The notes under the pieces are model-generated. The model was not told the DNA's origin, did not search any database, and saw only the letters and a list, made by a program, of their open reading frames with translations. Shown here one piece after another: positions 33,104 to 33,367 of a stretch of DNA of 64,000 nt. The DNA is from Escherichia phage JP4. The stretch lies in sequence record PQ330092. The stretch is one strand, 5' to 3'. Both the position numbers and the translations under genes were made by a program. Each line of letters starts with the position of its first letter. Positions within the stretch are counted from its first letter, which is position 1.

Positions 33104-33131
33104 AGCCCACCTTAAACAGTGGGCTTTTTTG
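33104..33131 (+). terminator. intrinsic terminator (second copy of AGCCCACCTTAAACAGTGGGCT + T-run)
   Basis: Identical hairpin to 32378 followed by TTTTTTGTG. Confidence 0.7.
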
Positions 33132-33367
33132 TGTCTGTAGTATTCCAGTCCACCAGCACCGCCTAGAATCGATTCTAACGCATTAAACTGATTATCTGAT
33201 ACATCGCCCTAGCTGGTGGCGTTAAGGTCGTTAGAATGCGATTGAGAGCGTTTAAAGTATTTTGCAAAAAGTAATAAAAAGTACTTGCACGATAAAGAGA
33301 TTAGCGTATAATGTTTTACATCGAGAGGGGGAAACGGTTCTCCTTCCAAATCAAAGGAATCAAAACA

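What the first reader, a model, noticed from the sequence alone, without database searches (positions are those of the whole stretch)
33130..33260. Nested inverted repeats and a recurring GTTAGAATGCG motif
CCACCAGC...GCTGGTGG forms an outer inverted repeat enclosing ATTCTAACGC...CGTTAGAAT. GTTAGAATGCG recurs at 28268, 33240 and 37303, and CCACCAGC(ACAA)GCTGGTGG forms a perfect hairpin at 27366. These lie in gaps between early transcription units and may be operator-like sites or cruciform-forming DNA.
Basis: seen in the sequence. Interest (0 to 1): 0.4.

Follow-up and report, generated by a model that had tools for sequence, protein, structure and literature searches.

The report
Chi sites clustered in phage terminal repeats
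The "outer inverted repeat" is two oppositely oriented copies of Chi (GCTGGTGG), the signal that switches the host RecBCD nuclease from degrading DNA to recombining it, and it belongs to a dense, one-directional Chi cluster confined to the 20-kb terminal repeats of this jumbo coliphage, a known phage strategy that I found no report of for this group.

Summary
The sequences exist but are mis-described. The two inverted repeats are interleaved, not nested, and half of the listed copies are one site counted twice, because window 26792-46905 is repeated exactly from 46906 as a 20,114-bp direct terminal repeat (DTR) of an Asteriusvirus-type jumbo coliphage.

CCACCAGC/GCTGGTGG is the E. coli Chi octamer. 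The DTR holds 10 Chi (8 one way, 2 the other) against about 0.2-0.4 expected. In relative CRJP21, Chi is 12.7-fold denser in the DTR than in the 326-kb unique genome, and the 24 one-mismatch neighbours are not enriched. Nine of ten sites are invariant in six relatives while their flanks drift. A distant Klebsiella jumbo phage shows the same cluster and the same terminal double-Chi hairpin.

Best reading: Chi sites that control RecBCD at the ends of the injected linear genome, as proposed for P1 and LLS. They are not operators or cruciforms.

GTTAGAATGCG is the core of a roughly 24-28-nt element found only in the DTR (three copies). It also occurs in the terminal repeats of T5-like phages, inside the region annotated as T5's injection stop signal. 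Its function is unknown.

This is a new member of a known kind, of moderate interest.

The parts
26792..46905 (.). Right copy of the 20,114-bp direct terminal repeat (DTR). It is an early-gene block with about 24 sigma-70 promoter cassettes, all on the + strand.
   Evidence: Exact periodicity of 20,114. Records of BF17, CRJP21 and vB_Ec-M-J start exactly at the equivalent of 46906, and vB_Ec-M-J annotates 'Direct Terminal Repeats'. Promoters. DTRs of 20.7-21.0 kb were mapped by PhageTerm in fEgEco12 and Sharanji, and confirmed by restriction digests in fEgEco12.
46906..64000 (.). Left DTR copy (its first 17,095 bp), identical to 26792-43886. The window wraps from the right end of the record to its left end.
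27369..27388 (.). Back-to-back double Chi palindrome CCACCAGC-ACAA-GCTGGTGG, 577 bp from the left terminus. No T-run follows, so it is not a terminator.
   Evidence: Both octamers are invariant in 6 relatives, and the loop is flipped ACAA<->TTGT in 121Q and Turkey3. The same architecture (loop TTAA) sits 484 bp from the terminus of Klebsiella phage fENko-Kae01.
33104..33131 (+). Intrinsic terminator of the upstream gene (32585-33082).
33150..33157 (-). Chi in the minority orientation (GCTGGTGG on the - strand), active for RecBCD travelling left to right.
   Evidence: Lost in 121Q (CCGTCAGC) and ph0011 (CCACTAGC).
33164..33177 (.). Perfect 14-nt palindrome TAGAATCGATTCTA.
   Evidence: One-sided changes in EcMJ and ph0011.
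33212..33219 (+). Chi in the majority orientation, active for RecBCD entering from the right end.
   Evidence: Invariant in 6 relatives.
33230..33253 (+). Copy 2 of the DTR-specific element GTTAGAATGCG-N4-AG-N2-CGTTT.
   Evidence: The same element is found in T5-like terminal repeats.
28269..28292 (+). Copy 1 of the GTTAGAATGCG...CGTTT element.
37308..37331 (+). Copy 3 of the GTTAGAATGCG...CGTTT element. Its AGGA doubles as the Shine-Dalgarno sequence of the gene starting at 37336.
37237..37262 (+). Terminator-like hairpin that embeds Chi (37252-37259). It is a degenerate double-Chi palindrome, CCACTGGT-TAAC-GCTGGTGG.
   Evidence: -20 kcal/mol. Kae01 has the same hairpin with compensatory stem changes.
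38715..38722 (+). Chi inside a small ORF (38622-38810).
39983..39990 (+). Chi, intergenic, upstream of a promoter cassette.
42331..42338 (+). Chi inside ORF 42293-42535.
43737..43744 (+). Chi inside ORF 43680-43952. It is invariant even in ph0011, where the flanking codons have many substitutions.
45537..45544 (+). Chi, intergenic, the closest correctly oriented site to the right terminus (1,361 bp).
33285..33312 (+). Early promoter (TTGCAC-N16-TATAAT) of the downstream gene 33368-33595. It is followed by a leader hairpin (33323-33346) and a Shine-Dalgarno sequence.

Best explanation
The arms of the 'outer inverted repeat' are two independent, oppositely oriented Chi sites (5'-GCTGGTGG-3'), the octamer recognised by the host RecBCD helicase-nuclease. 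They belong to a cluster of 10 Chi sites confined to the 20-kb direct terminal repeat of a jumbo coliphage.

Proposed mechanism (inferred). The packaged genome is linear, so after injection both double-strand ends are entry points for RecBCD.
- An enzyme entering the right end travels leftward. It meets eight Chi in the active orientation (GCTGGTGG on the strand that ends 3' at that end), the first at 1.4 kb.
- An enzyme entering the left end meets an active Chi at 0.58 kb (the left half of the 27369 palindrome) and another at 6.4 kb (33150).
- At Chi, RecBCD stops degrading the 3'-ended strand and loads RecA onto it. Because that tail is terminal-repeat sequence, it can invade the other repeat copy. 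This would circularise the genome, build concatemers, or prime recombination-dependent replication, rather than the genome being digested.
- Several sites are needed because a single Chi is recognised only in a fraction of encounters. Conversion must happen before the enzyme leaves the 20 kb that has a homologous partner.

Shown here: the identity of the octamer, its restriction to the DTR, its polarity, its exact-word specificity, and its conservation. Inferred: RecBCD action and its benefit to the phage.

The inner motif GTTAGAATGCG is a separate thing. It is the core of a bipartite element of about 24-28 nt (three co-oriented copies per DTR) that is also found in the terminal repeats of T5-like phages. 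It is most likely a protein-binding DNA site of unknown function. Its partial complement at 33167-33180 is not maintained in relatives.
For: Identity and excess.
- The octamer equals Chi, with 22 hits against 0.61 expected.
- The window DTR has 8+2 sites against 0.13-0.30 and 0.04-0.10 expected on the two strands.

Whole genome of relative CRJP21.
- 11 Chi in the 20,152-bp DTR against 14 in 325,997 bp of unique sequence. That is 12.7-fold denser (binomial p=5e-8), and Chi has the highest observed/expected ratio (62x) among frequent DTR octamers.
- Exact-word specificity: 11 Chi against 3 in total for all 24 one-mismatch neighbours in the DTR. In the unique region Chi (14) is about as frequent as an average neighbour (about 9).

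Relatives.
- Six aligned DTRs carry 10-11 Chi each, with orientation 8-9 to 1-2.
- Variable columns: 3/80 in Chi against 94/584 in flanks, p=0.001, and all three lie in the minority-orientation site at 33150.
- 121Q gained a Chi through a multi-base patch.
- 7 of 11 CRJP21 sites are intergenic, although 64% of the DTR is coding.

Independent lineage. fENko-Kae01 (about 29% ANI) has 12+2 Chi in its 19.7-kb DTR against 1+1 in the next 30 kb. It has the same double-Chi hairpin 484 bp from the terminus, and Chi sites placed in promoter spacers and in a terminator stem.

Physical ends. DTRs of about 20.7-21 kb were mapped by PhageTerm in relatives, and by restriction digests in fEgEco12.

Orientation rule and precedents (P1, LLS).
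Against: - There is no experiment. RecBCD dependence of these phages is unknown.
- Relatives are annotated with their own recombination proteins, unlike the Chi-rich lambdoid class, which lacks them.
- The 8:2 asymmetry between the two ends is unexplained. In principle either end could use either orientation equally.
- T5, which also has long terminal repeats, has only 2 Chi in its 10-kb repeat, so Chi clustering is not a general property of long DTRs.
- Subramaniam & Smith argue that Chi does not simply 'protect' DNA. Protection and recombination cannot be told apart here.
Confidence: 0.8

Rival explanations
1. Operator or cruciform hypothesis. The inverted repeats pair with each other, as a DNA cruciform or as the two half-sites of a dimeric regulator's operator, and control the neighbouring early promoters.
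For: - A perfect 8-bp/4-nt hairpin exists at 27369.
- DNA folding of 33135-33265 is slightly better than shuffles (z=-2.2).
- There is a perfect 14-nt palindrome at 33164-33177.
- The location is between a terminator and a promoter.
Against: - The two pairs are interleaved, so they are mutually exclusive, and their spacers are 48-54 nt.
- The 33150 arm is lost in 2 of 6 relatives while its partner is invariant. The inner arms and the 14-nt palindrome change on one side only.
- Most Chi copies are single, without a partner.
- The RNA fold gives z=0.15.
- The arm sequence is exactly the host's Chi, and one-mismatch variants are absent.
Confidence: 0.04
2. Compositional, codon or duplication artefact. 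GCTGGTGG is frequent only because the + strand is G-rich, because of Ala-Gly-Gly or Leu-Val codons, or because one unit containing it was copied along with the promoter cassettes.
For: - The DTR has positive GC skew and all its genes are on the + strand.
- The region is highly repetitive.
- Three sites are coding.
- The three CCACCAGC outside the DTR (14814-15334) lie in runs of CCA/CCACC repeats and look compositional.
Against: - Markov models up to order 4 predict 0.4 or fewer sites.
- The one-mismatch neighbours sum to 3.
- All ten sites have different flanks and none lies inside the repeated cassettes.
- 7 of 11 are intergenic.
- The octamers are more conserved than their flanks.
- An unrelated DTR in Kae01 has the same excess at non-homologous positions.
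Confidence: 0.02
3. The same Chi-RecBCD interaction, but with a different pay-off. Chi near the ends limits RecBCD degradation products and so suppresses CRISPR spacer acquisition or other end-sensing defences, or it simply inactivates the few RecBCD molecules in the cell until phage inhibitors are made. Recombination between the repeats would be irrelevant.
For: - The observations are the same as for the best explanation.
- The phage group is annotated with its own recombinase and nuclease, so host-mediated recombination may be dispensable.
- From my own knowledge, not tested here: Chi reduces spacer acquisition (Levy et al. 2015), and RecBCD is inactivated after acting at Chi.
Against: - Restriction of Chi to exactly the stretch that has a homologous partner fits recombination best. 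Chi stops at the DTR boundary, with 1+1 in the next 30 kb of Kae01 and none in the 26.8 kb left of the right DTR copy in the active orientation.
- P1's dependence on RecBCD for circularisation is a direct precedent.
Confidence: 0.12
4. For the GTTAGAATGCG element only: it has no function of its own. It is a remnant of non-coding modules exchanged between coliphage early regions, or of duplication within the DTR.
For: - T5's LTR and this DTR share a second, unrelated exact 20-mer at the start of a promoter leader (window 45600-45619 = T5 rc 5019-5038; 40.1 bits against a maximum of 34.2 in shuffles). This suggests module exchange.
- The distance of the element to terminators, promoters and Chi is not constant.
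- Copies have point changes in ph0011 and Turkey3.
- The element is absent from Kae01.
Against: - Specified positions vary less than the N positions (3/54 against 5/18, p=0.02) and less than the flanks (40/237, p=0.02).
- All copies have the same strand and position in six relatives.
- The element is present in about 20 T5-like contigs.
- T5's short variants keep the two blocks in helical phase, 10 bp apart instead of 20.
- There are no copies in 326 kb of unique genome.
Confidence: 0.3

Closest known systems
Phage P1 (and P7, D6): Chi sites concentrated in or near the terminal redundancy, proposed to drive RecBCD/RecA-dependent circularisation of injected DNA (Subramaniam & Smith, bioRxiv 10.1101/2021.07.08.451572)
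   Same: - The same octamer and the same host enzyme.
- Chi density above that of the E. coli chromosome.
- Concentration in the terminally repeated DNA of a linear packaged genome, which gives a natural rationale: recombination between the repeats.
   Different: - P1 is temperate and packages by headful from pac, so its redundancy is variable (5-10 kb) and its Chi sites are on both strands (31 of 50 on the top strand).
- Here the phage is a virulent jumbo myovirus with a fixed 20-kb DTR and no excess of Chi outside it.
- The polarity is strong (8:2).
- A conserved palindromic double Chi sits about 0.5 kb from the terminus.
Lambdoid phage LLS and the 'no Rec module' class: 20 of 23 Chi in the active orientation, clustered at the right end (Genome Res 2025, PMC12315714)
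   Same: - Terminal clustering.
- About 7:1 bias toward the orientation active for RecBCD entering from the right end.
- A similar density, about one Chi per 1.9-2 kb.
   Different: - LLS has cohesive ends and lacks its own recombination genes. Its growth is enhanced by RecBCD, which has been shown experimentally.
- Relatives of the present phage are annotated with recombination proteins.
- RecBCD dependence is untested here.
Phage T5 left terminal repeat non-coding repeat regions (IRB/IRB', Repeat Region 3, the 'injection stop signal' region) (Davison, bioRxiv 10.1101/866236; GenBank AY587007 and AY543070)
   Same: - The GTTAGAATGCG-N4-AG-N2-CGTTT element occurs at T5 9272-9295, within the iss feature annotated at 9140-10149.
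- Short variants form the annotated IRB/IRB' repeats.
- In both phages the element lies in a long terminal repeat that carries the first-expressed genes. It is downstream of a terminator and co-oriented with transcription.
   Different: - No paired DnaA boxes, IRC/IRD repeats or DRD iterons occur in the jumbo phage DTR.
- The two terminal repeats share no proteins.
- The element has no assigned function in T5 either.
- Two-step injection is not known for Asteriusvirus.

Membership tests
Chi (crossover hotspot instigator) sites of enteric bacteria | Exact octamer 5'-GCTGGTGG-3' | tested here: met
   10 exact copies in the DTR. One-mismatch variants are essentially absent.
Chi (crossover hotspot instigator) sites of enteric bacteria | The host encodes a RecBCD enzyme that recognises this octamer | tested here: met
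   All close relatives were isolated on E. coli or Salmonella, and Kae01 on Klebsiella. That GCTGGTGG is the Chi of enteric bacteria is stated in the abstract of PMC13181404 (listed). The host of the window's own phage is inferred from 96-99% identical relatives.
Chi (crossover hotspot instigator) sites of enteric bacteria | Orientation dependence: active only for RecBCD approaching from the 3' side, so functional sites are polar with respect to a DNA end | tested here: met
   8:2 in the window, 8-9 to 1-2 in six DTRs, and 12:2 in Kae01. The minority-orientation site nearest the left end is conserved in all of them.
Chi (crossover hotspot instigator) sites of enteric bacteria | Chi-dependent RecBCD nicking, RecA loading and hotspot activity | not testable with these tools
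   This needs enzyme assays or genetic crosses.
Phages with terminally clustered, oriented Chi arrays (P1 / LLS type) | Chi density above the host chromosome's and concentrated at the packaged DNA ends | tested here: met
   One Chi per 2.0 kb in the DTR, against one per 4.6 kb in E. coli (figure) and one per 23 kb in the unique genome.
Phages with terminally clustered, oriented Chi arrays (P1 / LLS type) | No phage-encoded recombination module (the rule for the lambdoid Chi-rich class) | tested here: not met
   CRJP21 is annotated with 'recombination endonuclease subunit', 'nuclease subunit' and 'recombination protein'. Sharanji is annotated with 'recombinase A'. These are annotations only and were not verified here.
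Phages with terminally clustered, oriented Chi arrays (P1 / LLS type) | Growth or circularisation depends on host RecBCD/RecA | not testable with these tools
   This needs plating on rec mutants.
   The 33150 arm is lost in 121Q and ph0011. The inner arms and the 14-nt palindrome change on one side only. Exception: the two arms of the 27369 hairpin are both invariant, but each is itself a Chi.
   The pairs are interleaved, with 48-54-nt spacers. DNA fold z=-2.2 and RNA fold z=0.15.
T5 injection-stop-signal region elements | Sequence element located in a non-coding spacer of a long terminal repeat | tested here: met
   The 19 specified bases match exactly and there is further agreement at the N positions. 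The T5 copy lies inside the annotated iss feature.
T5 injection-stop-signal region elements | Paired DnaA boxes within large inverted repeats (IRC/IRD), and DRD iterons | tested here: not met
   The DTR has only two isolated DnaA-box matches and no counterpart of the DRD repeats. blastn-short finds no other iss similarity.
T5 injection-stop-signal region elements | Two-step DNA transfer that halts at the element | not testable with these tools
   This needs interrupted-infection experiments.

The most novel reading that the evidence does not exclude
The GTTAGAATGCG-N4-AG-N2-CGTTT element is a cis-acting signal shared by T5-like phages and Asteriusvirus jumbo phages, and it acts on the first DNA to enter the cell. 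In T5 the copies lie a few hundred bp inside the two reported first-step-transfer stop points: copies at 5281, 6213 and 9271, against stops at about 5.8 and 9.6 kb. This would imply that the 20-kb DTR of jumbo phages is delivered and expressed as a T5-like 'first-step' segment with defined pause sites. In that picture the polar Chi array protects that exposed segment.
Probability: 0.08. Interest if true: 0.8.

Novelty: new member of a known kind. Interest (0 to 1): 0.5.

Why it matters
It turns an anonymous "inverted repeat" into a concrete, testable statement about how a 350-kb virulent phage deals with the host's main double-strand-end nuclease in the first minutes of infection. Fixed long terminal repeats are common in large phages, yet why they are long, and how the injected ends survive and recombine, is poorly understood.

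Two results suggest that RecBCD-Chi control of the genome ends is a conserved part of the biology of these phages. First, the polar Chi array is restricted exactly to the repeat. Second, it is conserved across phage genera, together with a palindromic double Chi about 0.5 kb from the terminus. This also extends the P1/LLS observations to virulent jumbo phages that are annotated with their own recombinases.

The model predicts which end is the main RecBCD entry point, and hence possibly which end enters the cell first.

The second motif gives an unexpected sequence link to the still undefined injection-stop region of T5.

Tried and rejected
- tRNA or tRNA remnant for GTTAGAATGCG: ARAGORN finds none in the window.
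- Known RNA family: only sub-threshold chance hits in Rfam.
- RNA structure over 33135-33265: z=0.15.
- Motif as a promoter -10 (TAGAAT): I read the three contexts by eye and found no usable -35 at 16-18 nt in any copy, and the distance to the next promoter is not constant.
- Motif as part of a longer duplicated cassette: the three copies align only over about 28 nt, and the flanking genes fall in different PHROG families of unknown function.
- Small ORF after copy 1: the ATG is not conserved (ACG in four relatives).
- A shared phage protein that could bind the motif: tblastn of 17 T5 LTR proteins against window 1-46905 gave nothing significant.
- T5-style DnaA-box architecture: absent.
- Motif in bacterial genomes: 5 hits in 596 Gb, against about 4 that I estimate by chance. 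One of the five is a T5-like contig binned as a MAG.
- IMG/VR for more relatives of the flanking gene: only 121Q was found, so GenBank phage records were used instead.
- Chi sites as copies of one repeat unit: rejected, because all flanks differ.
- Chi as replication-fork-repair polarity: considered. The orientation would fit, but the unique genome shows no Chi excess.
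Full report
WHAT THE WINDOW IS

BLAST of the region against GenBank phages gives 91-97% identity to Asteriusvirus jumbo coliphages such as PBECO4, 121Q and CRJP21, plus Salmonella isolates.

The window is exactly periodic with an offset of 20,114 from position 26792 to its end. A query spanning 46905/46906 splits in every relative. The records of BF17, CRJP21 and vB_Ec-M-J begin precisely at the equivalent of 46906, and G17 and WPEC3 end there. vB_Ec-M-J annotates 1-21525 as "Direct Terminal Repeats".

PhageTerm gave direct terminal repeats (DTRs) of 20,993 bp for fEgEco12 and 20,668 bp for Sharanji. Restriction digests confirmed the repeats for fEgEco12.

So window 26792-46905 is the right DTR copy, and 46906-64000 is the start of the left copy, with the window wrapping round the ends of the record. 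Every site in the finding therefore has a non-independent twin at x+20114.

OBSERVATION CHECK

All the quoted strings exist, within 1-10 nt of the stated positions. The description "outer repeat enclosing inner repeat" is wrong. The order is:
- CCACCAGC (33150-33157)
- ATTCTAACG (from 33172)
- GCTGGTGG (33212-33219)
- CGTTAGAAT (33229-33237)

The two pairs are therefore interleaved and mutually exclusive.

The region is the 285-nt spacer between the stop codon of gene 32585-33082 and the start of gene 33368-33595. In order it contains:
- an intrinsic terminator (33104-33131)
- the two Chi octamers
- a 14-nt perfect palindrome, TAGAATCGATTCTA (33164-33177)
- the GTTAGAATGCG element (33230-33253)
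- one of about 24 copies of an early promoter cassette (AAAAAGTACTTGCA -35, TATAAT -10, a GGGGAGAA/TTCTCCCC-type leader hairpin, then a Shine-Dalgarno sequence)

THE OUTER ARMS ARE CHI

GCTGGTGG is the Chi octamer of E. coli. The window has 22 hits on both strands against 0.61 expected. Thirteen of these are non-redundant, and ten lie in the DTR:
- Eight have GCTGGTGG on the + strand: 27381, 33212, 37252, 38715, 39983, 42331, 43737 and 45537.
- Two have it on the - strand: 27369 and 33150.

Markov models of order 1-3 predict 0.13-0.30 and 0.04-0.10 for the two strands. The three remaining copies (14814-15334) lie in runs of CCA/CCACC repeats outside the DTR and look compositional.

I assembled the complete genome of relative CRJP21 (366,301 bp; two identical DTRs of 20,152 bp).
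- Each DTR has 11 Chi (9:2). The 325,997-bp unique part has 14 (9:5). That is a 12.7-fold density difference, binomial p=5e-8.
- Among frequent DTR octamers, Chi has the highest observed/expected ratio (62x). The only more significant words belong to the AGTACT family and the promoter cassette.
- The enrichment is specific to the exact word. The 24 one-mismatch neighbours sum to 3 occurrences in the DTR against 11 for Chi. In the unique region Chi (14) is as common as an average neighbour (about 9).
- Seven of the 11 sites are intergenic although 64% of the DTR is coding (p=0.06).
- All sites have different flanks, and none is part of a repeated cassette.

CONSERVATION

I aligned the DTRs of the window, CRJP21, vB_Ec-M-J, 121Q, ph0011 and Turkey3.
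- Each has 10-11 Chi, with 8-9 on the + strand and 1-2 on the - strand.
- Nine of the window's ten sites are invariant in all six. Only 3 of 80 Chi columns vary, against 94 of 584 flanking columns (p=0.001). All three variable columns belong to the minority-orientation site at 33150, which is lost in 121Q (CCGTCAGC) and ph0011 (CCACTAGC).
- At 43737, ph0011 has many substitutions in the flanking codons and none in the octamer.
- 121Q has gained an extra Chi at the equivalent of 28228 through a multi-base patch. The window has lost one (GCTGGCGG at 45314) that four relatives keep.
- The 27369 palindrome keeps both octamers everywhere, but its 4-nt loop is ACAA in four genomes and TTGT in two. 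The simplest explanation is a flip of the palindrome.
- The hairpin at 37237-37262 is a degenerate double Chi, CCACTGGT-TAAC-GCTGGTGG. The right-hand Chi forms part of a terminator-like stem (-20 kcal/mol).

INDEPENDENT LINEAGE

Klebsiella phage fENko-Kae01 has about 29% ANI to Asteriusvirus and a PhageTerm DTR of 19,736 bp.
- It has 12+2 Chi in its DTR against 1+1 in the following 30.3 kb.
- The palindrome CCACCAGC-TTAA-GCTGGTGG sits 484 bp from its left terminus, and the last + strand Chi is 382 bp from its right terminus.
- Four Chi lie inside -35/-10 spacers of promoters. One lies in the same terminator hairpin as window 37252, with compensatory stem changes.
- Chi sites placed wherever the sequence is free to vary are what selection for the octamer itself would produce.

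MECHANISM (INFERRED)

Chi is recognised only by RecBCD that approaches from its 3' side. GCTGGTGG on the upper strand is therefore active for an enzyme that entered at the right end.
- The right end of the packaged genome faces eight active sites, at 1.36 to 19.5 kb.
- The left end faces two, at 0.58 and 6.36 kb.

At Chi the enzyme attenuates degradation and loads RecA on the 3' tail. Here that tail is DTR sequence, whose only homologous partner is the other DTR copy. This gives circles, concatemers or primed replication, as proposed for P1 and LLS.

If 20-40% of encounters are productive (an assumed range, not measured here), eight sites convert 83-98% of enzymes before they leave the repeat, and two sites convert 36-64%.

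The restriction of Chi to exactly the repeated stretch favours recombination over mere protection, but the two cannot be separated here. The 8:2 asymmetry is unexplained. One testable idea is that the right end is the first, or the only unprotected, end in the cell.

Points against: the group is annotated with its own recombination proteins, and T5's terminal repeat has only two Chi.

WHY NOT OPERATORS OR CRUCIFORMS

- One arm of the outer pair is dispensable in relatives.
- The inner arms and the 14-nt palindrome change on one side only (EcMJ, ph0011, Turkey3).
- The pairs are interleaved, with long spacers.
- The RNA fold is no better than shuffles (z=0.15). The DNA fold (z=-2.2) uses only the inner pair.

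THE GTTAGAATGCG ELEMENT

The three copies (28269, 33230, 37308) are all on the + strand. They share the consensus CGTTAGAATGCG-WTYN-AG-RV-CGTTTWA, but their similarity does not extend beyond about 28 nt. A fourth, one-mismatch copy at 38432 lies in an acetyltransferase gene.

The element occurs only in the DTR, with 0 copies in 326 kb of CRJP21 unique sequence. It is present at the same places in the relatives, with point changes in ph0011 and Turkey3. Its specified positions vary less than its N positions (3/54 against 5/18, p=0.02) and less than its flanks (40/237, p=0.02).

It is not a tRNA, not an Rfam family and not a convincing promoter. Its distances to terminators, promoters and Chi sites are not constant.

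An exact scan of IMG/VR for GTTAGAATGCGNNNNAGNNCGTTT unexpectedly returned about 20 contigs of 96-122 kb besides 121Q, often with one hit per terminal repeat. These are T5-like phages.
- In T5 (AY587007) the element is at 9272-9295, between the terminator/palindrome C and inverted repeat D'. This is inside the feature annotated "injection stop signal (iss)" in AY543070.
- Short variants (CGTYAGAAAGCG-TTTTAGG) form T5's annotated inverted repeats B and B' at about 5281 and 6213. In them the two blocks are 10 bp apart instead of 20, which preserves the helical phase. That suits a protein-binding DNA site better than an RNA hairpin.
- The N positions also agree. For example, a T5-like copy GTTAGAATGCGTTACAGAGCGTTT matches window 37308, GTTAGAATGCGTTACAGGACGTTT.
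- Hits in bacterial genomes number 5 in 596 Gb, against about 4 that I estimate by chance.
- The T5 literature held here assigns no function to this segment, and the iss is still undefined molecularly.
- The jumbo phage DTR lacks T5's DnaA-box pairs and DRD iterons, and the two terminal repeats share no proteins.
- A second shared non-coding module exists: an exact 20-mer at the start of a promoter leader. Exchange of regulatory modules between coliphage early regions is therefore a realistic alternative to a shared function.

NOVELTY

Terminally clustered, oriented Chi arrays are described for P1 and for lambdoid phages such as LLS. I found no mention of Chi or RecBCD control for Asteriusvirus or related jumbo phages in the searchable literature.

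I therefore file the finding as a new member of a known kind, with three distinctive traits:
- a fixed 20-kb DTR
- strict confinement of Chi to it
- a conserved terminal double-Chi palindrome

The link to T5's iss region is an open lead.

Noticed in passing
window 26792-46905 throughout, e.g. 27314-27347, 33278-33290, 36452-36466: The AGTACT/CAGTACTG word family is hugely over-represented. In the CRJP21 DTR, AGTACTGA occurs 56 times against 3.4 expected. The family also has 150-280 copies in the unique genome. Part of this is explained by the early promoter cassette (AAAGTACTTGCA overlapping the -35, and AGTACTGTATAAT as an extended -10). The genome-wide excess is not explained.
   Followed up: partly
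window 45600-45619: The exact 20-mer TATCTCGTAGGGCGGCAATG directly follows the -10 of the promoter at 45570-45598. It is identical to T5 AY587007 rc(5019-5038), where it also follows a -10-like TATTAT. It scores 40.1 bits against a maximum of 34.2 in shuffles. This is a second non-coding module shared between the terminal repeats of T5-like phages and Asteriusvirus.
   Followed up: partly
window 27599-27698: An array of about a dozen tandem 8-nt units (ACGGCTAG / ATGGCTGG / ACGGCTAA) lies in the non-coding first 1.6 kb of the DTR, 800-900 bp from the terminus and just right of the double-Chi hairpin. It is absent from fENko-Kae01. It could be a packaging or replication iteron array.
   Followed up: partly
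window 39895-39922, 43164-43191, 45422-45449 (variant at 35875-35902): The 28-nt hairpin AAAGGGATTGACTCCGGTCAGTCCCTTT occurs three times and is followed by GCTATTATAT. A TTGACT -35 is buried in the stem and a TATTAT -10 lies just after it, so this is a promoter whose -35 could be occluded by the hairpin.
   Followed up: no
window 27377-27380: The loop of the double-Chi palindrome is ACAA in four relatives and its reverse complement TTGT in 121Q and Turkey3. This indicates inversion (flip-flop) of the palindrome during evolution.
   Followed up: partly
window 14814-15334: Three CCACCAGC copies spaced about 256 nt apart lie outside the DTR, in sequence rich in CCA/CCACC runs, within a region of negative GC skew. 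Relative CRJP21 has no CCACCAGC in the corresponding terminal ~25 kb of unique sequence. They look compositional rather than functional Chi sites.
   Followed up: partly
window 28430-46065 (about 24 sites): The early transcription units are built from one repeated cassette: an A-tract, AGTACTTGCA(-35)-N16-TATAAT, TTTTACAT, a leader hairpin GGGGAGAA-N-TTCTCCCC, then a Shine-Dalgarno sequence. Nearly every small DTR gene has its own copy, which implies very strong, uniform host-RNAP-dependent early expression and a conserved 5' leader structure.
   Followed up: partly
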